Positions 1-51,309 of a DNA stretch of 64,000 nt are shown here, one piece after another. Below the pieces are notes generated by a model. It did no database searches. It saw only the letters and a list, made by a program, of their open reading frames with translations, and was not told the DNA's origin. Origin of the DNA: Amphiscolops sp. MND2022 (Eukaryota); NCBI GenBank assembly GCA_964187785.1, contig OZ076409.1, forward strand, positions 41,170,001-41,234,000, in the 5' to 3' direction. A program made the position numbers and the translations under genes. Every line of letters starts with the position of its first letter. The first letter of the stretch is position 1.

Positions 1-2688
1 AGTATTTCTCCGACAGTTGCCTCTCCAATGGTTTCTAGTAGCTCGTCCGTTTGCGTGGGGGTCAGCGAAAACTCGGAAGTTAGCACTTCAAGGTTCCATC
101 CCAGACCTAGACTGGTACAGAAGGCTTCCAATGGACAATTGAGCTCTCGAGCTACTTCTGCTAGAGTCCTGGTAGCAAACCTAGTCTTGTACCAATAGGC
201 GTGAGTGGTAGCTGCGGCGTCGACCTCGGCCTTCAGATTGGTTGCTTCAATTGCCACGATGCACCGCAGTCCTACAGACAGCTTCACGGGCTCGATTCCT
301 GAGGCGAAGTGGATCTGTGGGATTGTCCTCTCAACGGTGCGCGCTGCAGGCCATGCACCGATTTGTTTTGTCAGTTCGGCTAACTCTGCACGCACTGGGA
401 TTTCTTTGTCCTTTCGCATCAGCCAATTGTACCGACGAACAGCCTCTCGTTCGGTCACATTTGACTCTCGGGCGATGCGGTTGCCTTCAAGGTCGAAGGC
501 CATTCTGCCCATCCGCATTCCATGATCATAGAGGAGAGCGTCGTCAATGGTTAGCTGGGCATTTCCCGAGCGTTCTATAGCAACGAGCGCTCTAGATACA
601 GCGGCAAAGAAGGCTGGATACGATAAGGTATCTGGGCGCAGGTCCTCTCGGTCGACACGCAAGTTTGGTGCACAGATAGCGAATTCGACTCTGCGCGCCT
701 TGCATAACTCCAGCAGGATGTAGACGAACTGCTGCAGACTTCGTGGCCAGTACATAAATCCTGGTGGGGATACAAAGAGCGCGAGCGCTCCCAGACGACC
801 CCAAAGGATCCCTGCGGCACGTTCCATTGCACCGACAACCTCATTTACTAGGGCTGCAATGTCTCCAGGTCGTCGGAAATTGGACATTATGGCGTCTAGG
901 TCACGCAGCAACCCTTCGCAAGCCATGTGATCCAGAAGATTGGCAAGGATCACGCGCTGTGGGGGTGGCTCCTTCTGTGATCCTCTTAGGTTTGGATCGT
1001 ATATGGCTCCAACCATCTTAGCGATCTCAGCGAAGCGAGACAGGGGCATAGTCAGTACCAGCACGTCAGGCATCAAGTTGTCAATAGGCAGATCACTCCG
1101 GCAGGTAGAATCAACCGCCATGCAGTAGCTATGCTTTCCATAGGGGTTTCAGAGATCTCAAGTTGCGGGCGTAGCGGGCGTTCGCTTCCCATGTCTCACC
1201 TTCTCGCAACACATATCGTGCGGGGAATTGCTCGGTAATGTTATGTTGCAGGGGTGCCATGTAATCGTTAGTTGTCGTGGGCAGCTGCTCTCGAGTACGC
1301 TGTTCCCAAGCCTGCTCCGACATATCTGCGTCACGGGGGCGCAGCGAACGTGTAACCTGCGCCGGTATTGTGGTTCGATTGATTTCCTTTTGCTCCGTCT
1401 CAGTGGGAGGGGCCCTTTTCTTTATGGCGCATTGACTGGGGTAGAGATGCTCAGCCGCCATCCAAATGCGTTTGCTATCATTTGCGACTACTGAACCGGA
1501 TACGTCATCAGATGGAGGGAGGAAGGCTGGAGGGCGGGCCTCCTCCACCGTCTCAGGTATCTCCAGGGACATATCTATTGGATTCGTGCCCGAGGGCACA
1601 GAGCTCACTTCCGAGCCTGCGTCCGGATCTCCATACTGCTCGATTGCGTCCGCTAGAGACATCTGAGGCGCGCCTCGGCCTAGATGACCCACTCGGTATG
1701 GAGGCCTAGGGATGACTACTCTTTTCAGCTGGGGTCGAGGTACATCAGCGCGCTTGTCGGGAGGGGGACGACTAGTCGGGCTCTCGGTTACTGAGCCAGC
1801 TGGGGTGACTGAGGCAGTTTCTTCGGTTAGTCGCTTTCTCCCGGCTTCTTCTCATGTGCCAGTAGCAGCGCGTGCGCTGTTGCTTGGTCCAGCAGCAATT
1901 TCCACATCCATAGATGCCGTCTCGACTAAGGGAGCAGGGGGGTCACAGCCCGAGGGCTGAACAGCAGCTTGCAGATAAGTGGCTAGTCCAGGGATTCTCT
2001 GCTCTACGGCACGGACAAAATCGGAGGAATTCGGATAGTTGGCCACTGCTTGTAATGCCACAATTACGGCCTGTTCGCTGGTACTCCTTCCAGTTAGCTC
2101 TGGGTTAGGTATGGGTGGCAACCGGGACCCCGAGGGCTCCCGATCAGAGACTGGTGCACTAGTAGTGGTTTGCAGTACCATGTGTGGCGCTCGGTATGAG
2201 GTCCCAAAGGCAGGTGAACTGGAATAGGTTGGCGTCATTGGTACTGGTTTTGGTGCTGGTGGGGGCAATGCGACCATCTGAGGTGGTGGCATCGTTGCAA
2301 CGCTGACAGGCACCATACACAGGGAGGCTTCTTGCTCGAATCTCGTGCCCTGGCTGGGCCCAAGCATTGTGGTAGAGCGCTCATCCAAGAATTGATGCGT
2401 CAAATCGTGGCCATACCACGCATTGTTTTGGCAGGTTAGCGTGCGACGGTAAGCAGCTACTTCCGTCACCAGAGACACAGATACACCTGGCAGCGTCTGC
2501 ATCGTATCTAGTTGAGTGAGCAGGGCGGCCACGCCCGCTACCGCTAACGATGGAAGGCCGTTCCTCAGTCGTTCTTCTACATATTGGACTTGATTAGTCC
2601 TCTGCGCTCGCGCAGGCAATTCTTGAGACCTATTGCTATGAGGTCCCTTCCTGGGAATAGGCACCGTGTTGTTGGGGTAATAAGCCAT
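1..2688 (-). pseudogene. Extra ORF in env position (>890 codons): Pro-rich N-terminus plus degenerate SGNH-hydrolase-like domain; runs off the left edge
   Basis: ORFs 1852-2688 and 1129-1692 share a frame and are separated only by an in-frame TGA at 1852-1854. A 1-nt frameshift near 1135 leads into a stop-free frame from 1121 to 3 (MAVDSTCRSDLPIDNLMPDVLVLTMPLSR...VILANLLDHM...LFVSPPG...DLRPDTLSY...). Confidence 0.75.
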
Positions 2689-2700
2689 TATATCATAGGT

Positions 2701-2720
2701 CTAAAAAGGATTACCGTTAG
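2701..2720 (-). promoter_or_regulatory. Candidate branch point and splice acceptor for the extra ORF
   Basis: The minus strand reads CTAAC-ggtaat-CCTTTTTAG, 12 nt upstream of the ATG at 2688. Confidence 0.45.
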
Positions 2721-2975: not shown

Positions 2976-3450
2976 CTACTCCGGCCCTATGCTCAGAATG
3001 GACACGTACACGCGGTTATGCAGCACCACGTGAATGCCAGTGCCCTCAAGCAAATTCGTTAGGGTATGGTACAGGTTTACCAATGAGAGGGCGGGTCGCT
3101 CTGGATCCAGTATAGGTAGGTGGACCCTCGTGGATCCTTTCTCTATCAAACGCTGTATCAAGTGCGTCATACAACGTAGGTAATCGTCGGTGGGCAGCGG
3201 CGCACGCTGGTTTGCTCTAATTATCAGCAAGTGAATACTCTGATTTGGGTTTGGGTTGATATCAGGGGGAATGGTGAGAATCTCTCCCACCTTGGGGCGT
3301 AGGGAGAACACATTCTCCTTGCCACATTCTCGTAGCACGTACCGTAGGGCGGCTGAGTTGGTCTCTAGGTCAGCGGGACACGCTAACACCATATCACCTT
3401 CTACTTGTAGAAAATCTGTCACATCATATGAGAGGTGCTCTGTTGGGGCT
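2976..3450 (-). CDS. Macrodomain copy 2 (TARG1/OARD1-like), probable frameshifted C-terminus of Pol
   Basis: HLSYDVTDFLQVEGDMVLACPADL...LRPKVGEIL...IHLLIIR...PTDDYLRCMTHL...VHLPIL...LLEGTGIHVVLH follows the order of the TARG1-type macro motifs. Confidence 0.65.
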
Positions 3451-4710
3451 GGATGCAGAATCCCCGGTTAGATAATCTCTCTCCCGGCCCATTGTCGGCA
3501 GGTAAGCATACGCGGGGCGTACGCCCCTGGATTGCAGCCAGGTCTTGCCACACCGAGCGTGGCATCGCTCGATTATCACTGCTCGCCCTGACCCATGTGT
3601 CTAGGGCGCTCAAAGCGGCTTTTGGGGGAAGCGGAATCTCAAAAGTATGAGTCCACTCGTCCAGCAATCTAATGCGAGGATAATTGGTGAAACAAGTGAT
3701 GATTAGTTCCAACGACCACTCGAATTTCACTTTGCCACGATACCAGTCTATAATGTGGAAGCAAAGTATCAAGTCCGCAGTAGTGAGGGTCCTCAGACCT
3801 TCCAAGCAGGACAGTAGGTGCAGTGGTTCCACTATTGCCTCCACTCGTGGAGCAGTAACCAGCAACCACCAGTGCGGTGCTGGGCTGTATACTCCGCCCG
3901 GGTCCACGTGAATTCCGTATTTGTCACAGAGAAGATCAGCGGTGATGCATCGGACCATTTGCACAGGTTCCCGCTCAAAGTTGAAGGGTCCTAACGCAAT
4001 ATTGCTGGGTACTGGGGGCATCACCGTAGCGAGGGTAAACTCTAACCCTTTTCCGTCGCTAGTCCACTCCTTGAATCGAGGACATGGAGCTTTTGCTACT
4101 CCAGGTGATGATAACTTCTCCAGAATAGTATCCACGGGATGGTCTCCGTATCGTTCCAGGGAGGAATAAGTCTTTTCAGCTCTCACCGTAAGGCGATGTA
4201 CTAGATTTTCTCCCCGCTCCGGAGGAACTCCCCGGGCTCCAGTGGGAACCCTCCGGTTCTCATTGACGGCTAGCAAGCAGACACAGTCTCGCAGCCCACA
4301 GGTCCCGCATTTGTAGCGTGGCTGCCGCCTGCTTCTCAACTGGTATCGAGGGACTTCAGAAGTCTCGGTCGGCATTGCTGTTTCCGATGGCATTGTTGTC
4401 ATTGTTTCCTTCTTCCTCGTTCTTGCCTTCGCTCTGACCAGCCGTTTTCGCGTTTCGGGTGGTCTCCCCCTCCCCCTTTTGAGAGAAGGAGCGGTCTCCG
4501 TTCCGGGCAATGTCGTGGGAAGAGTAGGCACATTGGACTGAGCGTCGTCATCCTCGGTGGCGGACTTCGAAGGGAGGGAAGGAGCGGCCGGCCAAATGAG
4601 ATAGTTATTGAGGAAACTCGTCAGTGATGGATTTGTCAGTAATGGGGCCGATGTTCCCAATAATGAGGGCTGTTTTTCGGGAGAAGATATTTGTGGTGAC
4701 GGAGAGCGCG
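3419..4710 (-). CDS. Pol C-terminal extension: low-complexity region, AT-hook, Cys cluster, macrodomain copy 1
   Basis: Continues Pol across a frameshift at the GC run near 4705. KRGRGRPP at ~4457-4480, CGTCGLRDCVC at ~4278-4310, and VRCITADL...WLLVTAPR...LLSCLEGLR...LELIITCF at ~3655-4000. Confidence 0.7.
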
Positions 4711-7595
4711 CGCTCATGGTCTGAGAATAGTTGAGGTAGATGATGGGTAGGTGATATTGATTGATCTGAAGGGGGTTGGGGGACTTCGGGTTCCCCACGA
4801 TCAGCATCAACGGGATCAGGAGGTACCGGTAACATGATTTCGGATAGCTCATCGTCAGTGCCCGAGGTGGAGTAGTCGAACTGCTGGTAGTGCATGCGGG
4901 AACCTCCAGCACGCAACTTTGTGCGCAGACGGGTATCCATCCAATGATGCTTGCGCGAAGGCAAGGATATGTCAGATGCTTCTGAAAGTAGTTGTTCAGT
5001 TTTATATGAAGGCTGAGACTTATCGTCGTCAACCACATCAATAGAACGTTCAGGGTCAGGGACTATGAGTACCACTATTTCGCCGCTGTCCGCTTGCGCG
5101 GTGGTGAGCTCAAGGGGCCCACTGTGATGAGGTTTCAGGCGCTCAAAATGAACCTTTTGGCCTGTGTCCAACACGTAGACACGTCCTTCTTGAAAGACCT
5201 GTACTACTTTGTGCGGGCCACGCCAGGCGCGCATCAGTTTGGGGGAGCCTTTTTGCGGCACATAGCGGCAAAAAACCCAGACAAGCTCTCCTGGCTGGTA
5301 GGCTCGTGCCCGAATAGCACGATCATTATTCAATTTTTGGCGTAATTGGGCCTGGTGCGTATTGCGCCGGACCAAGTCGTGAATTTCTTGTTGGCGAGCC
5401 AACACATGATCCACATATGCCTCATGCGTATCAAAGGACTTGGCTGCAAATTCAGGGTACAAAAAGGTGAGGGGGATTGCTTTCTCAACACCCCTAGTCA
5501 ACATGTAGGGCGAGAAGCCTGTAGTGGCGTGCCTGGTAGAATTATAGGCACCGATCACTTCATCTAAGCATTGGTCCCAGTCGCGCATGCGGCGCGAGCA
5601 AAAGACTCGCAACAAGGTTAAGAGGGTGCGGTTTTGCCGTTCCACCAAACCTTGAGTTGGTGGATGTCCGGCGGTGGAGGTCACTTTAGTGACGTGAGCT
5701 GCCTTTAGGAACTCATTAGAGACTTCAGCAGTGAGGTTTGGAGCATTGTCTGATTGCATGCGAGTGGGGGTGCCGTGGCGGGCAAACCATTTCTGCAGCA
5801 GCAATCGTGAGGTGGTCACTGCGTCATAGTCGTGGTGACTACAAGGGACTGCCTCTGCAAATTTAGAGAAATGGTCTATGATGACCAAAATGCCGGTGTT
5901 GTTATCGTCAGAGGGGCAGATTTTTAAGTGGTCATACTGGACCAACTCGTTGAAATAGCCTCTCTGAATGTTTTTCAGTTGAAATCGTACGTCACCAGGC
6001 TTGTCACGTACTTGTTGGCAGGTGAGGCACTGGCCGACGTATCGACCGACGCTGCGCCGTATGCCGGGCCAAGTGTGGCGCTCTTGAATTCGAGCAACCA
6101 CTTTTGAGATACCTTGGTGTCCCATGGCGTCGTGCGCACGGAACAGAATTTCATGTTGATACAGCTGAGGCATTATGATCATGCACGGACGTTCGTGCAA
6201 TGGGCGTTGGGTGGGTGAGTATTGCACGCAAAGGACATCATTCTTGTTTATGAACAAGAATTCCTTTTTCTGGCGAAAATAGTTACGTGCGAATTCACGC
6301 ACGTTCTCGGGAAACACATCGTTATCTAGGGATTCACACTGCACGAGCTTTTTCAGTGCTAGCACATGGACGTCGCGGTTTTGGGCTAAGACCAAATCCT
6401 TGATCCCATGTACGGTATGAGTGTGTTCATGGAGCTCGGTGTCAATGTCCTTGAGGGCCATGATCGACTCGCGCACGCCACAAGGAGAATTCTGTAGCAT
6501 GGCGTTATTCGTTCCCGCCACAGAATAGATAGTGCGAGAGGGGACATTTACTGCATGCGTTGGCAGCAGGTAATCCTCGCTCGCCTCGGTGGTGACGTCT
6601 ATCCAGTCTTCAGGATAGTCTGGGTAGAAGACCTCATGCTTTTGCAGCACGGGTGGAGGCTTGGGCGGTAGAGGTGCGGCTAGCGCTTTTGCCTGTCGTT
6701 CTCGCTTGTTCGGTCGTTGCACACGGCGAAGCACACGAAGTGCTTGGTCAGGAGCCTTAGGCTCCAAGTTCTGCAGATGTGGTGGTAGGTCAGGATGATT
6801 TGGAATTATTCGACCTTGCAGGTCGAACCAGGGGGCTACGGGGAGGTTGTCGAATTCCTCGGCCGAGAGAAAATTCCAACGCTCTCCTGTAGCTGGCAGC
6901 TGCGCAAGCTGCTTTTCTCGGCATCGATAATCGTTGGGTCGTTTGCTCAAGCCATCAGCATTGCGGTGTTGAGATCGCGGTCTGTGTTCCACACGAAAGT
7001 GATACCTGTCCAGCGTCATGATCCAACGTCCAATCAATGCTTGGTCTGTGGAGTAGGTTTTCAACCAGGATAGGGCTTGATTATCGACTCTCAGGGTGAA
7101 CTTTTGGGGGCAAAGGTAGCTGTGGTATTTCAGGATGAAGTAGTAGGCTGCAAACATTTCCAGTTTGGGTGCCCCATATTTGGCTTGGGTGGTGGTTAAT
7201 TTCTTGCTGCCGTATATGATCGGTCGCAGGCGTCGCTCTCCTGGAGCTCCTTGCCACTGGTGTAGGATACCGGAAATGGCAACGGCGCTGGCATCGGTGT
7301 CCAGCACAAACTCTCCTTCGGAATCAGGCTGCGCGAGCGCAGTCGCCTCGATCATTGCTTTCTTGATCTCGTTGAAGGCCTTTTGTTGTTCAGGGCCCCA
7401 TGCAAACGTGGCATTCAGTCCAATAACGGCGTGGAGGGGCGCAACCAGCTTGGCATTCCATGGGATAAATTCACGATAATATATAGCGAATCACAAAAAA
7501 CTTTGCATCTCTGTCTTGTTGCGAGGGATGTCCCAGTCGCGCAGTTTGGCAACAGCTTTCGGGTCCGGTTTGACACTTTCTGCGGAGACTACGCG
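4605..7595 (-). CDS. pol: Pol: RT thumb (frameshifted), RNase H, integrase
   Basis: RNase H motifs LDTDAS, KLEMFA, VDNQAL and NADGLS. Integrase motifs H-x4-H...CLTC, YDHL, SDNA, GLVERQN and WRGPH (GPY/F). Frameshifts near 7596 and 7495. Confidence 0.95.
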
Positions 7596-12344: not shown

Positions 12345-13576
12345 CAGTTCGGTGGCCAACGCGTTTTATTAATAGCGATCGAGTTACCGCTCACGATTAC
12401 TCGGAAGACTCAAATTGGGTCGCCGAACGCACCAGGGTCTTCAATTCGAGGCTGATCCCTTGGTCGTCCCGGTGAGCACTTAAGAAATTTAATGTTACTC
12501 AATGTCCTAGATTTTTCGAAACACGCTCTAGAGCTTGTAGGCTGTTCAAATTTGCACAGCGTTTTCCCACAAGCACACTGGGCCAGAAAATCAACCTGGT
12601 TTGGGGCAAAAAGTCTCCAGTCACTCACAGGAAGAATTTCAAAGAATTTTAGGATTTTTCAAAATTCGCACGACAACACTCAAGAGGCTCGTGTGTGCGC
12701 TAGAAGCGCTGTATCAAGCCCAAAATTGACCAGCAGATCTCAGGTACACGTAGGTTTACGAAAATGAACACAGTTTTCAGCTGCGCCCCTCCTACACAGT
12801 TTCACCTAGGTACAGACGTGCGGTACCACTACGTACCGAACTACACTGTTTTTCACGTCTTTTTCAAGATTGCGGTCCACTGGAAAGAGCTAGCAAGCTC
12901 AAATTCTCTGCAGCAACGTAGGAACTAGCACAGGTTACGATGGTGGGCTGCAATATAGCTCCACCCGTCGGCTAAGGTGCCTGGGTTACTCGGAAAAATT
13001 AAGAAAAAAACTGCCTTTTTGGACACCTTTTTGGGTGCCTCGTTTTTCCTATTTTCTCGACAAGTATCACACAGATCGGCACCAAACTTGGTAGTTTATG
13101 CCAGTGGGCACCTACAATGCCACTGATAAGGTCGAATTGAAGCGCGAGCGCTTACTTGAGGTTTCGACCTACTATGTACGTTGTACACGAAAAAACACAG
13201 TTTTTGACGACCTTTTTTCACAAATTGACCAAGAGGATCACCTCAGAAAATGATACGGCGGGCTAAATGGGACCAACGTGTTGCCCCACTATCCGTAGCA
13301 CTGGGATAAACCCTCAATTGGTGGTGCCCACTAGGTGTAAGGCACTGACAGTCCAGCAGTTTTGGGTTTTTTTGGCTTTTATGCTTTTCTGAAGTCGAAA
13401 CGTCAGAGAGCTTTTCTCGACTTTGGTGAGCGATACGCTCACCAAATTTTCGGCACTAACGTTAATTTTTGTGGTGGTTACGAAAATGCAACCAATTTTT
13501 GGCTAGGGTTCAGGAATCGATGACCCAACCCTAGCTCAGAGACAGTCCAGTTTTGTGGAAAATTGATCAAATTCAG

Positions 13577-13860
13577 TGCGTTTTTCCACTTTTCTCAGCA
13601 CTGAAAAGGAATTTTTGCACGCGGTTTTCACCACAATGCGTTATTTTTACTATAAAAACAGGAAAGGAGAGCGCGCGGGCTCCCAGGTCTCGAAAACAAT
13701 GGGTGTCCCAGAGGCTTTAATGATGCACTCTGGCACTCCTGAAACTGGCCAAAAATCAAGGTTTTTCAACTTTTCTCAACACTGAAAAGGAATTTTTACA
13801 CGCGGTTTTCACCACGATGCGTTGTCTTTGCTGCTAAAATCGAAAATGAGAGCGCTCAAG
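13577..13860. repeat. Diverged direct duplication inside the retrotransposon leader
   Basis: tttttccactttt ctcagcactgaaaaggaatttttgcacgcggttttcaccacaatgcgtt recurs ~183 nt downstream. Confidence 0.75.
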
Positions 13861-17000: not shown

Positions 17001-18684
17001 TTTAACAAGTGTTCAAATCAGAGTGACCTTTTCTTTCATTACCCGGATGTTTACTATTCCGTTTTGTGTTCCGTCTAATCAATAACGTGTCAACGTTATT
17101 TGCTTTGTCTTTACACAGTAGACGATACTTTTCACCACTTAAGTATAAACTAGAATTGACGTCTGCGATAAAATTGTTCGATTCAGCTAAGTCCGACTTG
17201 ATCTCTTACAACGATTTTTGCTACGTTTTACTTTTGGTCGAATATATTCTAAGATCCACCCAACAAAAACCAACCATCACAAATCTGCAAAGGTTTTCCT
17301 CGAAGACTATCAATCGTAAAGGCCTGAAAATTGGCACACGTATACCTGAGCTGTTATGCTACTTGTCTATAAAAATCGAATCGATTTGGGCCCCTAGTCC
17401 CAAACTATTAGCACCGGAAGAGCACTAGGTCGACCCCCATACGGACGGGTCGTTGTAAGTGGGAATAAGTAACATTATAAGGAAATTGATAGCCTATAGG
17501 TTATTAGGCCGTTTGCGTATACTTTCGAAACCCTTCGAAGAGCGTAGAAGGAGCACCGATCCTATGTGAACAATCCACGAATGTTATGTACATCGTCATC
17601 AGTCTATTCGAGGATCACAAAACTTACCTGAGAGGTTCACCTACCAACACTGAGTATTGTTTGTTCAAGGCAAGCGGGACCGGACGCGCTTTTTGTAACC
17701 TCTGACTTGTATTACCTCAAACAAACCGTGATAACGAGTGTAGTCGATCACTAACGTGAATGAACCTATATTTGTGACCCATTCGGGGGTGATCGCCTAA
17801 AGTAAACAAATCATACGCAATTCATGTTACTCGGGAACCATCTACCCTAGAATCATATAACTTGACATGTAGCAACTTTGGACGAGTATAACTAACTTCG
17901 AGGTCACCGGGGTACCTGAAGGTCATGTCAGAAGCGACTTCCGAAAAGATAGGAAAATTTATTATAAACCATAGAAATCAGTGATAATTTATGCACATCA
18001 GTCAGGCGAAAATTTTCGAAATGCATCGCACTTGGAACGACTGAAAAGTACTGCTCACACGTAGCGAACATGTTAACCATGTGATTGAAGGTCATTGAGC
18101 ACTTCTACCGACATTAGAAACGTCTTGGGCAGTTTAAATTTTTTTAGAATGAGGACTTTTGACATGGTGGTGAATTATTTGCCGTTGGCGGCAAAGAATC
18201 TTTGGTCAACGTTTAACTAGTGTAATGACATCAACTTGGGTCAATTCACTCAATCCTCTCGTCTAGATGTAGAGGCCATATTCTCAGGATTTGTTTCATT
18301 TGTTTCCGAAACCGTATTCCCAGGTACTCTGTCAGACAGCTTATCAATTTTGGAAGATAGGTTTTCTATCATCTTGAGAATCTCTCTTTGATTTGTTTCG
18401 TTTTCTTTTTTATGCTGGCAGATTTCTCAACCTTTTCACAGATCTCGCAAAAATCTTTGTCTGAAACGCTCGCAACGTTTCCAGGTCTCAAACCCGCAGC
18501 CTCAGTCTAGCGAACTAGTTGGAGAATCCTTTCTGGCTTTCCTTTTGGATGATCTTTCAGGCATTTTAGTTTTACAGTATGTGACTTTGTACTGGAAAAA
18601 TTAGCTTGAAGATTTCTGTTAGAATGTGAAGAAAATTGAGAGTTTAAAAGGTTTTTTGATTACCAATAACGGATCAAAAAGCAA

Positions 18685-19340
18685 ATGTTTCGCAAAAAGT
18701 ATCAGCTGAAATCTATTCCAAACCAACAGATATCTATACTTTCAGCTCGCCTGAGCGGGGGAAATTGCACACACCATTCACGCCTCGTTCAGCCCGGCGT
18801 CCTTCCGAGGCAGGGAAACCGGAAGTTCAGTTCCACTTTGTCGATTTCAGATTCTCAGTGTGTTCATCCTTTGCTAGGAAAGGAAGCTTCCACTTCCTTT
18901 CTGAGTTGCGACTCCGCTTCCCTTTGCCTCGAATTCCCGTCTTTTCGAGACGCCGAAGCTGAACGTGACAATGAAAGGATATGGATGAATCACAAAATTA
19001 CACCTGACAAGGAAAAGAAAACAAAATAATGACACTCAAAATTTACAGAGCGCAAAATGTCTCTTGATTTAATTAGAAAATCTTCGAAACACTGCACAAT
19101 TTTAAGATTAACTCGAAACACTGGATTTTTAAAGCTTTACGTAGCAGAATTGATGAGTACTGAAATCCTAGTCCCAGGCTGTGGTCTGGGACGTCCACTA
19201 AATTAAACATTGCTTACATTGAAAATGGGACTTAGAATTGCATGTAACTCACGATCGTCATATACAAATACGCGTATTAAACTATACTTTCATTTGGAAA
19301 AAAAAAGAAATCATTCGTATCACTAACATTAAATATTCGT
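18685..19340 (+). repeat. Diverged dispersed partial copy of the 1.1-kb tandem unit
   Basis: Shares gcagggaaaccggaagttcagttcc, ctgagttgcgactcc and gtcccaggctgtgg blocks with 21.9-23.6 kb. Confidence 0.9.
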
Positions 19341-19922
19341 TTGGCCTGGGATGTATCCCCTGGCCGAATTATTTGATCACTGCATTTTCCACAGTATTCT
19401 TGTAATATTTGCAACAGCTACATATTCGACATTGTTTCAACAATTGTTTGAACGGAACAAATTAGTTTACATGAATTCGATAGAAACACATTTTGGATTG
19501 AATTAGAATGAAGTAAATATAGCTCGTTGAGGCCGCTTTCCAGACCGGCGTCTCGCAGTGTTCATTTGAGGCCGGCTGCCAGACCGCAGTTTTGCTGTTA
19601 AATTTTTCGGGGCGCTTGCTAGGCCGCATATTTCCATTGTTATTTATTATATAGCACTGTATTAAATACTATTAACTGTACGGTATCTTCATATAGGTTG
19701 GTACATGATATGTATATAAAACTGTATGTAATTATACGAATACTGGTGAGTGATTTCTTTGATTATTATATTACTTTAGCGCCGTTATTTTAGGTTATTA
19801 TTAAAAGATAGCACAACGAACAGTTACATATTGATTTTTTGTTGTTTTTTCTTCAATTGTTTTCCATTACTTCACTTCCCATTTTGTCCTCTGTAAGCTG
19901 GGTTTTTTGTGTTACAATACTT

Positions 19923-19951
19923 ACAGCTCAGCTGGGGCTGTGGCAACTAGT
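19923..19951 (+). mobile_element. Possible Helitron-type 3' terminus
   Basis: Hairpin ACAGCTC-agctg-GGGCTGT, followed 5 nt later by CTAG|T. Confidence 0.3.
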
Positions 19952-21470
19952 GGTGTTCGCCATGCCATAAAAGGAACATATAAACATCAAAGTAAATGCA
20001 TGCAAACTTAAGATACCGACGCCTAATATTGCAAATGCCCATTATGATAGTAAGTGAAGATGTAACCATCAGAAACACGTGCGATGAATAAACAAATTTG
20101 AGGCGGAATCGAAAGAGTATTTAATAGACAGTTTCGAGTTAGAGAGCTAGCAGAAAGTTGAGCATCGGGACGGGGGCAAGAAATTTGACATAGCTGAAAG
20201 AAATTGTCGTCGTAAGCTCCGGGAGTGAAAGTCCGGCACTTGTGCTTGAGCCATATTTGGCTGAATTGGACATTGCTTCTTCGATTGATGCATATTAGTA
20301 AGTTTGACTGATTTGAATTACTTAGTGTTATTTCTGTGATAAAGTGTTTTTATAATTCCATTACTTGAAGTTTTTGGAAAACGCGAGCTGATAGAGCAAA
20401 TCTGGCGAGAGAAATTGACAATAACTACAAAAGAGTTGGCTAACTCACCAAAACCTTTTTTCTTTTGAACTTCCAATTGGAACTTCCAAGCCCTCGAATT
20501 TGATTTTCTTAGACACCCCTATCATACACTGTTCAGGTCAATTGGTGGTATGACATCACTGCTTATCTTTATTTAGACGTCCTCGAGTCAACCACAGCTG
20601 TCATTCCACTACACTCTATCACCTTTTGCATGCATCTCTGCTTATCATTCGCGTTATATGAAGACGTAATTTAGGCTCCAGCGGCAAGTCGGCGAGCACT
20701 AGTTACGTCGAAGGAAAAACGCGAAAACGCAAAATGGGAAGAACGTCTAAAGCAAAGTCATATCTATTCCCTATCTTAAGACATTCAATTCTAGATGTTA
20801 TTTCTTTTGACAATTTTCCCAAAACACTTCTAATCATTCTTCCTTAGAAGGTATTAGTGCTCCTAATTCAGTCTACAGACGAAACTGCCTGCATTTGCGC
20901 CTATCGGTGCTTCTAAGAAACCTTTTAGTGCAACAAGATGGGAGTGGCATGAAGCTAAAGATGCGCGAAGTGCATTAATTGTTTGATAATTTTTCAAACT
21001 CACAGTTGAAAAGAAACGCAAAAATTTTTCAAAGAGTCAAGGATTCATTTTCGAAAAAATCTCAGTTTAACAATTCTGGTTTTTGGGCTTTAAAAGCTTT
21101 TTTCACTGAAAACATCAAAAAAGCGAAAACATTTTTGTGATAACAGTCATTCCCCGAAAAACACACAAACTTTCCATAAGTAACTTGCAAAGACAACAAA
21201 ACACTTAATCTGCAAAACATTATAATTTCAATGTCAAAAGTTAAAAAAAGAAATGTTGTAGTTTAGTAGTTATAACGTAATTATAACATCAGGACGATAG
21301 TAAAACCAACTATGGCTAGAATTTTTACGCATCCTCTTCGGTTTTAAAAATCAAAAGTGACACCTCCAAAAAATACGCTCATATACGTCGAATTTCATCA
21401 CAAAGTATCGAAAAATGCTATTCTTTAGATCTTTTCAGGCAAATTGACATAAATTTATGTCATTTGTCTT

Positions 21471-24120
21471 ATTAGGGTTTTTTGAAGAGGTCACCCTAGT
21501 TGAAATTTAGAATAATTTAGAATAAATGGTCACCCATTTAGAATAATTTTGGGAGTTTGATAGAAAATGCTAAATTATTTCCTTGATGCAATGCTATTTC
21601 TTCAGGTACTTACTAGGATTCTTATACAACTTGGCGGGTTTTCAGAGCAACATCAACGAAATTCAAGAGAAATTTCCCCACAAAAATTTTCCATGTATTA
21701 GACTACAGGGTCTTTTTTTCAAAGCGCATAAAAAAGCTTCCAAGGTTTTTCAAGATACAGGAAAATTATACAAAATTTTTCATGCAGGGTCCCTGAAGTT
21801 TCTAAACTTCATCAAAAAGGATCCCTGCATGCATGCCTGCGCGCAAAAAAAATTAAACTCCTGCAATCTCAGCCCGGGCACTACTATAGGCAAAAGTTCA
21901 ATCATAGAACAATACACCCACTAATGAAAAAGTTTCGCAAAAATTATCAACTGAAATCTTTTCCAAACCCACAGATATCTATACTGTCAGCTCGCAAGAG
22001 CGGAGGAAATTGCACACACCCTTCACGCCTCGTTCAACCCGGCGTCCTTTCGAGGCAGGGAAACCGGAAGTTCAGTTCCGCTTTGTCGAACTCAGACTCT
22101 CAGTTTATTCATGCTTTTTAAAGAAAAAAAGCTTCCACATCCTGTCTGAGTTGCGACTCCTCTTTCCTTTGCCTCCAATTCCCGCTTTTGTCAAAATAAT
22201 GACACTCAAATTTTACAGAGGACAAAATGTCTGTTTGGTCAATTAGAAAATCTTCGAAACACTGCAAATAATTTGGATTAACTACAAACACTGGATTTTT
22301 AAGGCGTTACGTAGCAAAATTATTGAGTGATGAAATCCTGGTCCCAGGCTGTGGTTAATTAGACATTGCTTACATAGAATATGGTACTATAAAGTGCATC
22401 TAATTAAAGGTCGTCATTTACAAATACGCGTATTAAAATTTACTTTCATTAGGAAGAAGGAAATCATTCATATCACTAACAATAATCATCCATTTGTCAG
22501 ATTAGGGTCCCTTAAAGAGGTCACTTTAGTTGAAACTGCTTGAAATGTTTGCATGATTTCATAAGCTGCCTTTTATGCAAACTTTTAGCATAATTTTGCG
22601 AGTTTCATAGAAAATCTTTAATGCTAAATTATTTCCCTGATGCAATGCTATTTCTTCAGGTATTTACAAGGATTCCTATACAACTTGGCGGGTTTTCAGA
22701 GCAATATCAAGGAAATTCAAGAGAAATTTCCCCACAAAAATTTTCCATGTACTAGACTGCAGGGTGTTTTTTTCAAAGCGCATAAAAAAGCTTCCAAGGT
22801 TTTTCAAGATACAGGAAAATTATACAAAATTTTTCATGCAGGGTCCCTGAAGTTTCTAAACTTCATCAAAAAGGATCCCTGCATGCATGCCTGCGCGCAA
22901 AAAAATTAAACTCCTGCAATCTCAGCCCGGGCACTACTATAGGCAAAAGTTCAATCATAGAACAATACACCCACTAATGAAAAAGTTTCGCAAAAATTAT
23001 CAACTGAAATCTTTTCCAAACCCACAGATATCTATACTGTCAGCTCGCAAGAGCGGAGGAAATTGCACACACCCTTCACGCCTCGTTCAACCCGGCGTCC
23101 TTTCGAGGCAGGGAAACCGGAAGTTCAGTTCCGCTTTGTCGAACTTAGACTCTCAGTTTATTCATGCTTTCCAAAGAAAGCAAGCTTCCACATCCTGTCT
23201 GAGTTGCGACTCCTCTTCCCTTTGCCTCCAATTCCCGCCTTTTCGAGACGCCGAAGCTGAACTTGGCAATGAAAGAATATGGATGAATCACAAAATTACA
23301 TCTTACAAAGAAAATAAACCAAAATAATGACACTCAAATTTTACAGAGGACAAAATGTCTCTTTGGTCAATTAGAAAATCTTCGAAACACTGCAAATATT
23401 TAGGATTAACTACAAACACTGGATTTTTAAGGCGTTACGTAGCAAAATTAATGAGTGATGAAACCCTGGTCCCAGGCTGTGGTTAATTAGACATTGCTTA
23501 CATAGAAAATGGTACTATAAATTGCATCTAATTAAAGGTCGTTATTTACAAATACGCGTATTAAACTTTACTTTCATTAGGAAAAAGGAAATCATTCATA
23601 TCACTAACAATAATCATCCGTTTGTCAGATTAGGGTCCCTTAAAGAGGTCACCCTAGTTGAAACTGCTTGAAATGTTTGCATGATTCCATAAGCTGCCTT
23701 TTATGCAAACTTTTAGCATAATTTTGCGAGTTTCATAGAAAATCTTTAATGCTAAATTATTTCCCTGATGCAATGCTATTTCTTCAGGTATTTACTAGGA
23801 TTCCTATACAACTTGGCGGGTTTTCAGAGCAACATCAAGGAAATTCAAGAGAAATTTCCCCACAAAAATTTTCCATGTACTAGACTGCAGGGTGTTTTTT
23901 TTTCAAAGCGTATAAAAATGCTTTCGAGGTTTTTCAAGATACAGGAAATTTTTACAAAATTTTTCATGCAGGGTCCCTGAAGTTTCTTAACTTCATCAAA
24001 AATGATCCCTGCATGCATGCCTGCGCGCAAAAAAAATTAAATTCCTGCAAAAAAATTAAATCTCAGCCCGGGCACTACTATATGCAAAAGTTCAATCATA
24101 GAACTATACACGCACTAATG
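21471..24120 (+). repeat. Tandem array of a ~1.1-kb unit (~2.4 copies)
   Basis: atgcaatgctatttcttcagg occurs at ~21586, 22640 and 23768. Copy 1 has an internal deletion near 22188. Confidence 0.95.
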
Positions 24121-26855
24121 ACATATACCCTTTGGGTTTGAAAAAGCATTTTTATAGCTAGAAGTATGAAAAACCCAATGGGGGATCCTTTTGGTAATTT
24201 GAAACATTTTCGAAACAGTCTCACATAATTTCTTTTTTATTCAAATAATTTGTCAAAATATAAACGGGAGGACCCTTTCCGAACAGTTTGCCAAAATGTA
24301 GAATTTTTGCAGACTTTGGTTTTCGGCATGAAGAGGTCACTTCGACCTGATTGAAACAAAACTAGGAAAAAAAAGCCACTAGGGTCTTAGCACGCCGGAA
24401 ATAGGTTTTTTTCCTACCCGTGGAGCATTTTGTTTGTGTGCCAATTTTGAAAGCAGCCCAACATGCCCTTTTTGTGGTACCAAGCTGGGGAAGGTCGGAC
24501 TTTTCGACAAATCTTTCATCTTTTTTCGACGATGCGCCATAATTTTGATTTCGAGCAAATTTAAAACTTAAGATTGAGCGAGCTCAAGTTGCATCAGTTT
24601 TGATTTCGATCATGTTTACTGTCTTTCAAACAGCTCCATTTGCTTTTCTGACACTGATCTTCTTCGATTTTAACACGAATGTTCGCAAGGGGATACTAAT
24701 TCAACATCAGCAACTCTCTTCTAATTGATCGAGTCTCTTTAAATTTTCTCGAGCGTCGAATCACAATCGCTTACAGAGAAAATTTTCCAACAAATTCGTT
24801 TCTGGTAATGTTCTTACTTTTTCATCTTCACTTTTTACTCTTTGATTTCTCAACGAATAGATATCCTTTAAATTTAATCGAGAACTGTAAGAAAACACAC
24901 CATGACGTAATATTATCGCACGGCTTTATTGTAACTCACATTTATCGTCGTGAATTTCACCAAAAATCAAAGTTCAATATTACTTAATGGAAGTTTGCCC
25001 TTTTGTGATTGTCCCTCCCAAATTTCAATATCATCTGCGAGCAGTTTTCCGCGGTCAACTGCTAATTCAATTGATAACAAAGTGAATTTTACTTTAAAAA
25101 TGTTCACTTTTACTGGAACAGCGTCACATCGCTGGAGTTCACATAATTTTTTCATGATTATCGAATGCTTGTTTCTTGGTATCTCCAACAACATACCTTG
25201 AAGGATGAGGCTTGTTTATGAAGCTGAATTTTTTGAGGAAAGTATTTCGGGGGAAATCAAAGCTTTTTGGATACTCGACATAGCTAGCTAAGGATGCTAT
25301 TTTGATTTCCTTTGCTTTAGTATTCCCTTTTGCCTCGCCCTTTTTAAAAGGGTTTTTCTGAACATCCATAATTGCAAAGCCACGTGTGATAATCGCTGGA
25401 AAAGAAGAAGAAACTATTTTATGATAACGGTCATCTATTTGACTAGAAATTGTGCTTTCTTGGAGAAAACAAATATTTCCGAAGGCGGGAAGCGCAGAAC
25501 TATGATGAACTCTGAATGTGTTTCTCATCCTGGGACCAAATACAGCAGAGCGGAAGGAAAAAAGATGGTATTACGGATGTGCTGTATTTCATTTCGTTTA
25601 CACTGACCAGAAATGAAAACGGGATACTTATGTAGTTATAAGTGTTGTTAAAGCTTCAGAATCTTGAATAATATATCATTTTGTCAATTTGAAAATAACG
25701 TCAAACGCTGAATATGTCTATCAGAGACAGCTGGGGAATTGAAAAAATAAATTGGCAACAGTAGAGTTTTCTCCCATATCTAAAGAATAAAAGAATAAAA
25801 GCAATGCATCCATTGTCAAAAAGACAGATATATATCGCCATAAGACATGGATTCTTCCTCAAGAGTTGCAGGTTGCGCAACTAGTCTTCCGCTACCCTCG
25901 CCATTGCAGCAAGCACGACTCGAGAGACGGGCGGCTGCTGATTTCGACAAGGCAGCACAGACAGCAAGCAATCTACGCTAAGCTACTACTACTATTCCTT
26001 CATATTTCACTATTGCGATTATTGCGCAACTCTTGTAGTTCTACGCATCTCGCTTTATATTTTTTCAACTTCGTGGCATCATACCACTTCCGCTTCTCTC
26101 CGGTAGTCTTGGCGACTAGCCAGTGTGGCTCCCTTCCCTAAAATCCAGAACCCCTCCCCTGCTTACAGCCTCAGTACCTGATCTAAATCCTTCCAGGAAG
26201 TAACAACTGTAGTTGCACAGTGTTCTAATTCCAGTCACATCAAACAAGACACCCGCTCCTCGTGTTGTAAAAAGCCCCCACGCTGAGATCTGCGAGGGCT
26301 GAGGAAGACCTTCTGGGTTCGCAGCAACAAAGCGAATAATGGCGAACAATTAGCGCAAATTTGCAGACTTTGTTGCTAACTTGCGTCTCCTTTGATTTAT
26401 GAATGTTAACAAAACCTCGATAATATGGTTAGCGCTTTCTAATCAATTTAATCCAAAACGCCACAGAGCGCTTCTAAATATAGAAATTTACGCACTGCCA
26501 AAATTGTGCCAGATTTGGTGCACCCTCAAATGAACAGCATTCTTTTACCTTTTTCACAAATAAAATTCAACTGGCCTAACAAAGCAGCTCTTCCTCTTTT
26601 TTATTCTATCTAACGTCTTTGTATATATTTCTCTTTTTTCAGCGCTCCCGCTCCGAAATCCTTCCCAGAAAAAATCCTCATTACTCCACTACCAAGCACT
26701 CTATATCTCGCAGAAAACGCAACAGTCAAGTGGCCGAGCAAGTTCCCCTGACAAATGTTGAGAAATCCCAAATAACGGGGGCGGGCCAGGTAATAACAGG
26801 CGAGCCCTTTAATCATACTTCTCCCACCATTTGCCGCAATTTTTCCTCCCCCATT

Positions 26856-27065
26856 ATGCCTTTCAATTTTGATTCCAAGTTTGGATCCACTCGACAAAAA
26901 AGACGCGCGACTATGTATGTGGCACAGCACAGTCAGCCCCCTAGCGCCGAAATGCAGAGAAACAGCAAGATATTCAGACCCGTGCTAAGGATCTTACCCA
27001 TCAACCAGCTGCTTAAACAGGAGAAGATATTTCTAGAAGCCGCAAACAGAGGCGACAAGTCAACT
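26856..27065 (+). CDS. TRPC: TRPC coding exon 1 (start codon uncertain; acceptor at 26642 and frame open upstream)
   Basis: MPFNF...EKIFLEAANRGDKST, then donor gttagt (phase 0). Confidence 0.8.
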
Positions 27066-27744
27066 GTTAGTCAACACATGTTCTCTTGTAACCCTATGGT
27101 CTTTTCATTTTTTAACTTGGACCAAAATGTGTTTGAAAAATCAAATTGCGAGGAATTTCTGAACAATTGAAAATTTGTGACTGTAGATTAATTATTTTTC
27201 AATTTATTATACCAGTGAAAACGGAAACAAATGCGAACTTCCATGCCTCATTCTCCAGTTTCTTTTTTTAAAAAATTATCATTGAATCCTGAGATTCAAA
27301 CAAAGCACTTGCTGATTAGTTAGTAATAATCACAAAATTCATCAAACTTGAAATTCCTAGGTGAAAACATTTATAGTCACGCTCTTTTTTATACGTTTGG
27401 TGAAAAAGTCGGATGAAGTTTAGTTCTTTTTACTAACACCCCTACATGTTATATCAAGCTGGGAACGGCCCAAATCGGAGCCCCGCTCAAGATTCACAAA
27501 GGGCAAAGTGTTTTGAATATGTGAAGGGACACTCAAACATCAAAAAACCCAATTTGCCGATAAAAAGTCATTTTTTAACCAAAAAGTCAAAGTGTTCAAA
27601 AACTGAAAAAGAGACCAGAGACAGAAACGTTTCAAAAGTGAAGAGGGTACCCTTTGACCAAATGAAATTTATCTCTGAAAAAATGTTGTACAGTGTCCAA
27701 AGAACTTGTTTTATATTTATTGAGAACTCTCATCAGTCACATAT

Positions 27745-30976: not shown

Positions 30977-32354
30977 GTTAGATTCCTAGATTAAATACTA
31001 TTTGATAAACACTAGAAAATAAGGGGATTATTCAAAAGAAACCAATACACATGTCAAATAACTAACTTACATCAAGGTCAATCCGTTACCTTAAGTGACT
31101 CTCATGAGTATTGTTCTTTCAGCTCAAAGATCGTCGCCGTAAAAATACTTTCACAATTTTTCCCTCAAATGTTTCAAAATAATAAGGACTTCACCACGAA
31201 GACTTGAAACTACTGGGTATCGATTATTTGTTATACAGTTTTCTTCACAAAAATGCATTTATAAGCTTTTGTGATCTCAAAAAATCTAGCAACACAGCTT
31301 CAAGTCGGCCTTTGCTTGATCATTTGGCCGCAATAATGGTATCATAGCTCGCTATGGGGATATAGTAACCAAAAAGACGCTGGATTATAAAAGCAGGTGC
31401 TTAATCAGCGTCCACTGGTTAATTGGGTCAACAGTATTTTATTCTCCTTTCTGAAAACGTTTTCTGTTTTTGAACTTCACAAAGAGGCATACGGTAAAAA
31501 ACTATAAATCGTCACAGTAGACTTCATTTCTTAAAAAGCACTCTGATTTAAATCCCTGAGAATTAGAAACAACCTCGGGCAACCCATGGTCACATTTTCA
31601 CTAGGACTTCTTCAAAAATCATTCTGACTTCGCATCAGAATGAACTGTTTGGTTGGTTAAATGATGTTGAACTTACGTACACGTGCAGTGATATATAAGT
31701 GTTGACAATTCGCCCTTTGAGTGCTCTATGCCTTCAGGCTTTTTGAATGCAGCAGAAGAGATTGACAGGTCGCCTACTGTGTTCAAGTCAACAACAGTCA
31801 ACAAATCGCTCAACAGTGTACTTTTGGGACACTGGTGCTAAAAATAAAAAGAGCCGCAGGCTGTCGAAAGAATTAGGTGGTCACTTAAAAATCTACAATT
31901 GAATAATTACCTGTGACTGCACTTAGCATACAGGCATAAATAACCATTTCCCCCTGGCATGGATAACCATTTAACCCTGGCATGGCTAACCCTTAAATTA
32001 GAAAACCACTAATTTTTAACTGTCCCGGGTTGTCCTATCACGCAAATCATACTATGTTTCCATATATGGAAAGTAGCTGTCATACAAAAAACTTTTCATG
32101 TTCATGACATGACTTTAATGTTTTCAATTATGATCATCGTATTGATTGCCTGATTTCATATAACTAACTGTATGGCCCTTTTATGGAATACATGCTTTTT
32201 CAGTATGGCCCCTTCTATGAAACTCATGTTTACCAGTATGGCACTTCTATGGAACTCAAGTTTTTAGGAGTCGGAAAAAATTTTCGACTAATTATGCAAT
32301 CGTGCTGTTTTTTTTTGTTTTTTTTTCTCCCGACCTTTTCATGAAAATTTCAAA

Positions 32355-33065
32355 TTTCTCAAAAACTGTCCATACGATTTTCACGAAATTTTGCACAGTC
32401 ATTCTACACACAAAGGGGCCCCTGCGTGTGCAAAGGCATCAAAATCGTATGGCCTGGATGTGAGAAACATAGCCAAAATTAGCCCAAAAGTGGCCAAAAA
32501 ACAGCCATTTTTCGACTTTTTTCGATTTTTTCAAAAACTGTCCATACGATTCGAACGAAATTTTCTACAGTTATTCTACACCATATTAGAGTCCTATACG
32601 TGCAATGGCATCAAAATCGTATGGCTGGGATGTGAGAAACATAGCCAAAATTAGCCCAAAAATGGCCAAAAAACAGCCATTTTTCGACTTTTTTCGATTT
32701 TCTCAAGACTGACCATACGATTCGAATGAAATTTTCTACAGTTATTCTACACCATATTAGAGTCCTATATGTGCAGTGGCATCAAAATCGTATGGCTGGG
32801 ATGTGAGAAACATAGCCATAATTAGCCCAAAAATGGCCAAAAAACAGTCATTTTTCGATTTTTTTCGATTTTCTCAAAAACTGTCCATACGATTCGAACG
32901 AAATTTTCTACAGTCATTCTACACCATATTATGGTCCTTTATGTGCAATTTCATTAAATTCGTATGGCTGAGATGTGAGAAACATAGCCAAATTTAGCCC
33001 AAAAATGGCCAAAAAAACAGTCATTTCTCGATTTTTTCACAAACTGTTCATACGATTCGAACGAA
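32355..33065. repeat. Tandem repeat, ~172-bp unit, ~4 copies
   Basis: gatgtgagaaacatagcc recurs at ~172-nt spacing. The array is flanked by short gtatggccc/ttatggaa repeats. Confidence 0.95.
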
Positions 33066-51037: not shown

Positions 51038-51309
51038 CCGTGGTGCCTTCATCAGCAAACCTCACTCGTCGACATGTGTGTGCACGTCTTGCAGTCGACG
51101 TCACGGACATAATCAAGGAGTGGGGGAGGGGCCGGACAGTCTGAGACAGTCCTTAATCAGGATCAACACGTACAAGGCACTTGCCAGTCCTGCTTGGCTG
51201 TGTCTCACCACTCAGGACCCCATACACGCTGCATTCAAACTCAGCTGGGAGCTCAGTTGTCTCGCCCGCAAGGAGAACGAGTTCAAAAAGATATACCTCT
51301 CCCTTTCTG
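51038..51309 (+). CDS. TRPC: TRPC exon 4 (TRP_2 domain, H-x3-C-x-C-x2-C site)
   Basis: RGAFISKPHSSTCVCTSC...DSLRQSLIRINTYKALASP...DPIHAAFKLSWEL...ENEFK. Confidence 0.96.

What the first reader, a model, noticed from the sequence alone, without database searches (positions are those of the whole stretch)
1..1135. Hidden open frame with a degenerate SGNH-hydrolase-like domain in the env slot
Seen: a stop-free minus frame from 1121 to 3 (373 codons), missed by the ORF track. Its blocks resemble SGNH blocks I/II/III/V in order: YCMAVDS (cf. GDS), LTMPLSR, ILANLLDHM (cf. GxND), FVSPPG and DLRP (cf. DxxHP, His lost). Known: SGNH esterases occur in ORF1p of some CR1/L2 LINEs and in viral hemagglutinin-esterases. 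Inference: a lipid- or membrane-interacting pseudo-esterase replacing Env. No signal peptide or clear TM segment is visible in the part shown.
Basis: partly seen in the sequence, partly recalled or inferred. Interest (0 to 1): 0.72.

Follow-up and report, generated by a model that had tools for sequence, protein, structure and literature searches.

The report
Disabled esterase fold in Gypsy ORF3
This is the middle of a broken extra gene of a jumping gene; its protein is predicted to fold like a fat-splitting esterase but has arginine where the catalytic histidine should sit, so it likely binds a molecule rather than cutting it, a new variant of an accessory gene already known from rotifer elements.

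Summary
The open minus frame is real (1148-3, 382 codons; 373 from ATG 1121) but is not a gene of its own. It is residues 526-900 of a ~1,435-aa ORF3 that starts at 2688, downstream of Gypsy gag-pol, and is broken in this copy (stop at 1852-1854, frame change near 1126-1133). Intact natural copies exist (94% identical), in a high-copy family of at least seven lineages. An AlphaFold model of a 95%-identical copy matches SGNH hydrolases (best Z 11.6; no other fold named in the top 50 rows), mapping to window 1127-567. The nucleophile Ser is kept (30 of 31 long copies), the catalytic His position holds Arg (31 of 31), and the triad Asp and oxyanion Gly/Asn are mostly lost: a probable pseudo-esterase. 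'Replacing Env' is unsupported: no conserved signal peptide, C-terminal anchor or internal furin site. Best guess: a cytosolic accessory protein whose pocket binds an anionic lipid-like ligand; Oskar-like RNA binding is the main rival. SGNH ORF3s are published for rotifer Vesta elements, with intact catalytic residues. The scan found this same family before on other DNA of this genome (e1-9076048, e1-9389583). Linkage of all homologues to pol could not be tested.

The parts
3..1127 (-).
   Evidence: tblastn 94% identity over 375 aa
567..1127 (-). SGNH-fold domain (predicted)
   Evidence: model of P0008, 177 of 187 residues identical to the window frame here; fold searches
1107..1109 (-). Block I Ser, at the place of the TesA nucleophile Ser10
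   Evidence: range end-points and register; 30 of 31 long copies
1041..1043 (-). Block II: Leu at the oxyanion Gly position (Leu 16, Cys 15 of 31; Gly kept in the most distant lineage P0380/P0384)
   Evidence: register inferred from that lineage's MPGST motif
927..941 (-). Block III N-x-x-D-H: Asp kept, oxyanion Asn position hydrophobic, conserved Asn at the Gly position, His after the Asp
   Evidence: register inferred from strand and helix positions
633..647 (-). Block V EDLRP: Arg (638-636) at the catalytic His position; triad Asp position not conserved
   Evidence: Arg 31 of 31, Asp position N14 G8 T4 E3 L2
3..566 (-). Linker and start of a conserved, mostly helical downstream domain of no assigned family
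   Evidence: Atlas blank; not folded alone
1126..2688 (-). First 521 residues of ORF3 (ATG 2688): short conserved N-terminal block, long Pro/Ser/Thr-rich stretch; in-frame stop at 1852-1854 and a stop plus frame change near 1126-1133
   Evidence: 93% identity to P0144 residues 1-521; composition
2701..2720 (-). Candidate splice acceptor (CTAAC, pyrimidine tract, TAG) 12 nt before the ORF3 ATG, at the end of an AT-rich 287-nt spacer
   Evidence: 2 such motifs in 12.5 kb; 12 of 5000 shuffled spacers have one in the last 40 nt; pattern chosen after seeing it
2976..3467 (-). 163-codon frame, macrodomain-like by eye (recalled motif); probably the end of a frameshifted Pol
   Evidence: no Pfam hit, no meaningful PDB sequence hit
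3419..5062 (-). 547-codon frame after integrase, probably a long Pol tail
   Evidence: no Pfam hit
4605..7490 (-). Pol: RNase H, H2C2 zinc finger, integrase core
   Evidence: Pfam PF17919, PF17917, PF17921, PF00665
7596..12365 (-). Gag (PNMA-like, CCHC knuckle), protease, reverse transcriptase
   Evidence: Pfam PF14893 (weak), PF00098, PF13975 (below cut-off), PF00078

Best explanation
The frame is the middle of a broken copy of a ~1,435-residue ORF3 downstream of Gypsy gag-pol, whose central domain is predicted to have the SGNH esterase fold with arginine at the catalytic histidine position, so it is likely a non-catalytic binding module in a probably cytosolic accessory protein. Shown: the frame, its place, the intact natural relatives and the motif tallies. 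Predicted: the fold and the residue register. Inferred: ORF3 is made from a spliced subgenomic RNA; the old active-site pocket (Asp-Ser, block III Asn and Asp, Arg) is kept to grip an anionic ligand such as a phospholipid head group or acyl compound; and through it the protein tethers the element's RNP or particle to intracellular membranes, as proposed for the ZfL2-1 ORF1p esterase, without acting as a fusogen. About 0.9 for the identity, 0.8 for 'no canonical catalysis', 0.4 for the lipid-tether role.
For: Gag-PR-RT-RH-IN order on the same strand and the same high GC (0.52-0.56 against 0.37 beyond 16 kb). Intact copies of 1,361-1,493 aa; 90% clusters of 581, 491, 657, 342, 210 and 172 members, fragments included. 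Model pLDDT 76-98 over residues 41-240. VIA against 48,161 chains: 3p94 Z 11.6, rmsd 3.8, 177 aligned; 1bwp 10.9; Oskar OSK 5a4a 8.3. TesA 1ivn aligns 47-235 to 1-179, putting Ser on Ser10, Arg on His157, Glu on Asp154 if the end segments are ungapped; a weak unforced HHalign gives the same EDLRP/DGIHP register (P 0.043). D531 31/31, S532 30/31, N588 30/31, D591 30/31, R689 31/31, S694 31/31 although lineages share only 31-44% identity in the domain; the C-terminal tail is 12-30% identical in the same distant pairs. ZfL2-1 esterase binds liposomes even with active-site mutations (PMC3905857, passages).
Against: No ligand, membrane or RNA data at all. The domain's net charge is -1 to +3 in 7 of 7 representatives, unlike the positively charged membrane face described for ZfL2-1. 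Foldseek never reached E 0.001 (best 6.7e-3 PDB, 2.0e-3 viral); structural identity is only 6-18%. No residue-by-residue superposition was available. The Ser and a block III His (31 of 31 long copies) leave a rewired catalytic site open. The 31 copies fall in few clusters and are not independent. Linkage of the relatives to pol was not tested.
Confidence: 0.5

Rival explanations
1. Oskar-like RNA scaffold: the dead SGNH domain binds RNA, and the long disordered stretch drives condensates that gather the element's RNA in germ cells or shield it from silencing.
For: OSK (5a4a) is among the matches, Z 8.3. Oskar is a small folded domain, a disordered linker and an RNA-binding SGNH-like domain (PMC12005264, passages); ORF3 has a short conserved N-terminal block, ~280 low-complexity residues and then the SGNH fold. 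Conserved Arg residues (R525, R682, R689); flanking segments 401-523 and 1051-1290 are basic (+6, +9).
Against: OSK ranks 37th, below active hydrolases; the domain's net charge is neutral; conservation centres on the old pocket; the N-terminal block was not folded and has no Pfam hit.
Confidence: 0.22
2. Rewired enzyme: the kept Ser is still the nucleophile, activated by the His after the block III Asp, with the conserved Asn as oxyanion donor and Arg gripping an anionic substrate (an esterase or acyltransferase of new geometry).
For: S532 30/31, H592 31/31, N588 30/31, R689 31/31.
Against: The most distant lineage (P0380, P0384) has Asp in place of that His yet keeps Ser and Arg; Leu or Cys fills the oxyanion Gly site in 31 of 31; Ser-His distance could not be measured (no coordinates given).
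Confidence: 0.14
3. Env substitute: a surface or fusion protein that makes particles infectious.
For: ORF3 position and a candidate splice acceptor. One conserved, moderately hydrophobic Pro-containing segment near residue 1,000 (KD19 1.73-2.28). 3 of 31 long copies have a hydrophobic N-terminal extension. A spliced leader could add a signal peptide.
Against: The extension lies ahead of the conserved start and is absent from other lineages; in the window an in-frame TAG sits five codons before the ATG. No C-terminal anchor; RxK/RR motifs only at the extreme C-terminus in 2 of 5 checked; 5-20 Cys, poorly conserved. No viral glycoprotein among the listed matches of the SGNH model. Vesta GDSL ORF3s were judged non-env on the same grounds (PMC5408684).
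Confidence: 0.06
4. ORF3 is a separate mobile or host gene that only lies next to this Gypsy element.
For: Linkage of relatives to pol was not testable here (no genome held; no loci found); the 3' LTR is outside the window.
Against: Starts 288 nt after the Pol-tail frame, same strand and GC; hundreds of mostly broken copies, no introns, as for a retroelement gene; earlier scan notes report the same pairing on other pieces (unchecked leads).
Confidence: 0.04

Closest known systems
GDSL/SGNH ORF3 of bdelloid rotifer Vesta LTR retrotransposons (PMC5408684; read: parts 1-2 of 5 and passages)
   Same: SGNH-fold ORF3 downstream of pol in a Gypsy-like element, without env features
   Different: There the S, G, N, H residues are reported intact; here His is Arg and the triad Asp, Gly and Asn sites are mostly lost. 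Here the domain sits in a ~1,400-aa multidomain protein. Vesta carries dUTPase; no dUTPase hit here. Direct sequence comparison with Vesta ORF3 was not possible.
GDSL derivatives of Athena-L Penelope-like elements (PMC5408684, passage)
   Same: Retroelement-borne SGNH derivative lacking catalytic residues
   Different: Different retroelement class; the paper groups them with PC-esterases; the substitutions were not seen by me
ZfL2-1 ORF1p esterase, PDB 4c1b (PMC3905857, passages)
   Same: Retrotransposon SGNH domain; Foldseek rank 29, E 0.057, 16% identity; binds anionic lipids without needing catalysis
   Different: Active triad S143/D279/H282, LINE ORF1 (gag-like position), coiled-coil dimer, basic surface
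Oskar OSK domain, PDB 5a4a (PMC12005264, PMC3905857, passages)
   Same: Non-catalytic SGNH fold behind a disordered linker; Z 8.3, rmsd 4.0, 161 aligned
   Different: Host germ-plasm protein that binds RNA; 8% identity; no sign of descent
Active SGNH hydrolases: GDSL lipase 3p94, PAF-AH 1bwp, E. coli TesA 1ivn
   Same: Best structural matches, nearly whole domain (Z 11.6, 10.9, 9.8)
   Different: Intact Ser-Asp-His triad and oxyanion hole; 10-14% identity

Membership tests
SGNH/GDSL fold superfamily | alpha/beta/alpha sandwich matching the whole SGNH domain | tested here: met
   Predicted model; Z up to 11.6, 44 chains at Z 8 or more; 11 of the top 50 titles say GDSL or SGNH, the rest are esterases, acetyltransferases and structural-genomics targets I recall as SGNH. 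Foldseek E values not significant.
SGNH/GDSL fold superfamily | Sequence match to Pfam SGNH profiles | tested here: not met
   No SGNH family for the window frame, 98 aligned members or long copies; HHalign to a 7-sequence SGNH profile probability 1.2%
Active SGNH hydrolases | Block I nucleophile Ser (GDS) | tested here: met
   D-S kept, Gly replaced; S 30 of 31
Active SGNH hydrolases | Block II oxyanion Gly | tested here: not met
   Leu 16, Cys 15 of 31; Gly only in P0380/P0384
Active SGNH hydrolases | Block III oxyanion Asn (GxND) | tested here: not met
   Ile 21, Phe 5, Leu 4, Ser 1 of 31 at that site; an Asn two residues earlier might stand in; register inferred
Active SGNH hydrolases | Block V Asp and His (DxxH) | tested here: not met
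   Arg 31 of 31 at the His site; no Asp in 31 at the Asp site
Active SGNH hydrolases | Ester hydrolysis | not testable with these tools
   needs an assay
Ty3/Gypsy LTR retrotransposon | gag, PR, RT, RNase H, integrase in that order | tested here: met
Ty3/Gypsy LTR retrotransposon | Two LTRs enclosing ORF3 | not testable with these tools
   3' end lies outside the window; no genome held; no second LTR copy in the window
Env glycoproteins of LTR elements | N-terminal signal peptide | tested here: inconclusive
   Hydropathy only: polar N-terminus in the window's lineage; hydrophobic extension in 3 of 31 copies; a spliced leader is possible
Env glycoproteins of LTR elements | C-terminal transmembrane anchor and internal furin site with fusion peptide | tested here: not met
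   C-terminal 145 residues polar and acidic; strongest 19-residue window 1.73-2.28, about 400 residues from the end, with two Pro; no internal RxK/RR in 5 of 5 checked. No trained TM predictor was run.
Vesta-type GDSL ORF3 | SGNH ORF3 downstream of pol | tested here: met
Vesta-type GDSL ORF3 | Intact S, G, N, H residues | tested here: not met
   against PMC5408684 section 3.3
Vesta-type GDSL ORF3 | Common descent of ORF3 or RT with Vesta | not tested
   no Vesta sequence was fetched
Oskar OSK-type RNA-binding pseudo-hydrolase | RNA binding through a basic surface | tested here: inconclusive
   net charge -1 to +3; surface not inspectable

The most novel reading that the evidence does not exclude
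An old family of Gypsy elements has turned a captured SGNH esterase into something new: either an enzyme with a rewired site (Ser, block III His and Asn, Arg clamp) or an Oskar-like RNA-binding scaffold that builds the element's own germ-line granules, carried in a 1,400-residue protein whose C-terminal 500 residues match no known family.
Probability: 0.3. Interest if true: 0.75.

Novelty: new variant of a known kind. Interest (0 to 1): 0.42.

Why it matters
SGNH domains have been captured by LINEs, Penelope-like and LTR elements, and why is still open. Here the pocket is kept across lineages only about one third identical while the catalytic machinery is lost, which argues that binding, not hydrolysis, is what the element needs. 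The isolated domain makes the lipid-versus-RNA question testable. It also warns against annotating such ORF3s as env. The broken window copy itself is a fossil.

Tried and rejected
Sequence searches gave no SGNH signal: Pfam, PDB phmmer and profile searches, Atlas (best 0.81, unrelated; blank), HHalign to TesA alone (probability 0.3%); global HHalign failed. The helical region after the SGNH domain was not folded alone, so its lack of matches says nothing. No genome held. No sequencing run was listed. No relative in metagenome contigs (0 of 14 and 0 of 29 pattern matches) or viral contigs (0 of 18); alignments A2 and A3 had no stretch conserved enough to scan with. No tRNA or Rfam match in the window. 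No second ORF3 copy in the window. Macrodomain reading of 3467-2976 not confirmed. P0309 was dropped from the tallies because it lacks most of the SGNH domain and repeats the C-terminal half. Literature searches for a His-to-Arg SGNH ORF3 returned no paper describing it; the library lacks most subscription papers, and no supplements or Repbase entries were seen, so the alignments in PMC5408684 could hold similar cases.

Full report
Observation. The minus strand has a stop-free frame from 1148 to 3, 382 codons, running off the window; from ATG 1121 it is the 373 codons reported. The five motifs lie in order at 1127-1107, 1055-1035, 950-924, 776-759 and 647-633. None of 1000 shuffles of bases 1-1200 gave a frame that long (longest 225).

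Context. Upstream on the same strand are gag (weak PNMA hit, CCHC knuckle), protease and RT at 12365-7596, then RNase H and integrase at 7490-4605: the Ty3/Gypsy order. Two further frames (5062-3419, 3467-2976) have no Pfam hit; the second looks macrodomain-like by eye only. Coding parts have GC 0.52-0.56, the DNA beyond 16 kb 0.37. A TRP_2 exon at 50955-51473 (E 1e-22) points to an animal host. No genome is held, so the 3' end was not seen.

The frame is part of a longer gene. The homologue search gave 142 hits among 7,998 scored candidates; the 120 listed are all ENA, unnamed, without Pfam domains. Two more searches gave 24 and 10 longer proteins, all ENA. The natural copy P0144 (1,435 aa) matches the window in two pieces: residues 1-521 at 2688-1126 (93%) and 526-900 at 1127-3 (94%). 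This copy has an in-frame stop at 1852-1854 and a stop plus frame change near 1126-1133, so it is broken. Clusters at 90% identity hold 581, 491, 657, 342, 210 and 172 members, fragments included, with several full-length copies among the 15 listed for each. A profile search found 643 representatives at E 0.001 or better, of which I saw 150. A tree of 20 chosen rows shows at least seven lineages, with weak deep branches. The most distant relatives come from short contigs (0.8-23 kb); one is an NCBI record, MEO1519123.1, on an 816-base contig of a Bacteroidota MAG, which I infer is carried-over eukaryotic DNA. This suggests the family is not confined to one assembly.

Fold. Sequence methods show no SGNH signal. 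A first 866-residue model was poor and ambiguous. A second, of natural copy P0008 with 98 aligned sequences, has pLDDT 76-98 in every 10-residue block from 41 to 240; P0008 and the window frame share 177 of 187 residues there. Against 48,161 chains, 44 reach Z 8 or more; the best are GDSL lipase 3p94 (Z 11.6, rmsd 3.8, 177 aligned), PAF-AH 1bwp (10.9) and sialic acid esterase 7pzg (10.6), and the list includes Oskar OSK (8.3). Eleven of the 50 titles say GDSL or SGNH; that the others are SGNH is my recall; none names another fold. Foldseek ranks the same proteins first but stays above E 0.001. The domain maps to window 1127-567.

Active site. TesA 1ivn aligns over model 47-235 to chain 1-179. 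With the fetched TesA sequence, ungapped ends put Ser on Ser10, Arg on His157 and Glu on Asp154. A weak, unforced HHalign against seven bacterial SGNH sequences gives the same EDLRP/DGIHP pairing (P 0.043). The tools gave no residue-level superposition. Among the 31 stored copies of 1,340 aa or more (P0309 dropped; the copies fall in few clusters): D531 31, S532 30, N588 30, D591 30, H592 31, R689 31, P690 31, S694 31; Leu 16 or Cys 15 at the oxyanion Gly; no Asn at the oxyanion Asn site; no Asp at the triad site. In the 98-row alignment the Arg is in 67 of 80 rows with a residue there, the Ser in 49 of 56. The most distant lineage (P0380, P0384) keeps the block II Gly, the Ser and the Arg, but has Asp instead of H592, which fixes the block II register and weakens the idea of a relocated catalytic His. 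Distant lineages share 31-44% identity in the domain against 12-30% in the C-terminal tail, so the pocket is under constraint.

Not Env. Full-length copies begin with polar sequence; 3 of 31 have a hydrophobic extension ahead of the conserved start. The strongest hydrophobic window (1.73-2.28) is mostly a Pro-containing segment about 400 residues from the end; the tail is polar; furin-type motifs occur only at the extreme end in 2 of 5 checked. These are simple scans, not trained predictors. A branch-site, pyrimidine-tract, AG motif ends 12 nt before the ATG (2720-2701), consistent with the spliced messages typical of ORF3s (PMC5408684); the pattern was chosen after seeing it and no RNA data were available.

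Mechanism. Best reading: a cytosolic accessory protein, made from a subgenomic RNA, whose dead SGNH pocket grips an anionic ligand and tethers the element's RNP or particle to membranes. The precedent is ZfL2-1, whose esterase binds liposomes without its catalytic residues (PMC3905857, passages). Against this, the domain's net charge is near zero. The main rival is Oskar-like RNA binding and condensate formation (PMC12005264, passages), then a rewired enzyme. None of these is shown.

Known and new. SGNH ORF3s downstream of pol are published for rotifer Vesta elements, with intact catalytic residues, and catalytically stripped GDSL derivatives for Athena-L elements (PMC5408684: parts 1-2 of 5 and passages; PMC5718144, one passage). 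PMC7250577 (passages) was consulted on OSK origin and adds nothing here. Six searches found no paper on a His-to-Arg SGNH inside a 1,400-residue Gypsy ORF3; supplements and Repbase were not seen. The scan noted the same family on other pieces of this genome (e1-9076048, e1-9389583); I had the fold hint before that look-up and tested fold and substitution myself. Whether all homologues sit behind pol could not be tested.

Verdict. Observation confirmed; SGNH pseudo-esterase supported; Env replacement not supported. New variant of a known kind; interest 0.42.

Noticed in passing
window 2701-2720 (-): Branch-site, pyrimidine-tract and AG motif 12 nt before the ORF3 ATG; a donor-like GGTAAG lies just upstream at 2727, too close for an intron.
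   Followed up: partly
window 2976-3467 (-): 163-codon frame that looks like a TARG1-type macrodomain by eye, probably the end of Pol; no sequence hit confirmed it. An earlier scan note (e1-9091616) reports such a domain on Pol elsewhere in this genome.
   Followed up: partly
window 3419-5062 (-): Long post-integrase frame with a CxxCxxxxCxC motif near 4300-4270 and a further globular-looking stretch; no Pfam hit.
   Followed up: no
window 2400-2620 (-): A roughly 80-residue N-terminal block of ORF3 (motif W-x-G-x-D-L-T-H) is conserved across distant lineages, ahead of the low-complexity stretch; not folded.
   Followed up: no
beyond the window; P0144 residues 800-1130: Conserved helical region with a P-I-F-G-x5-R-Y-P motif shared by all lineages; no Pfam or Atlas match.
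   Followed up: partly
window 12421-12434 (-): TGG-starting stretch 70 nt before the gag frame that may be a primer-binding site (tRNA-Gly-like, from recall); not preceded by CA.
   Followed up: no
window 13580-13674 and 13761-13855: 96-nt direct repeat, 86% identical, in the presumed 5' LTR or leader region.
   Followed up: no
window 50955-51473 (+) and 26580-27170 (+): Host gene exons: a TRP_2 domain hit (E 1e-22) and an ankyrin-like stretch by eye, suggesting a TRPC-type channel gene spread over the window.
   Followed up: partly
window 32348-33038, 59100-60400, 18678-24121: A 172-bp tandem array (4 copies), a ~180-bp degenerate array and ~1.1-kb duplicated segments in the host DNA.
   Followed up: no
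protein P0309: A natural 1,402-aa copy that repeats the C-terminal half of ORF3 and lacks most of the SGNH domain.
   Followed up: partly
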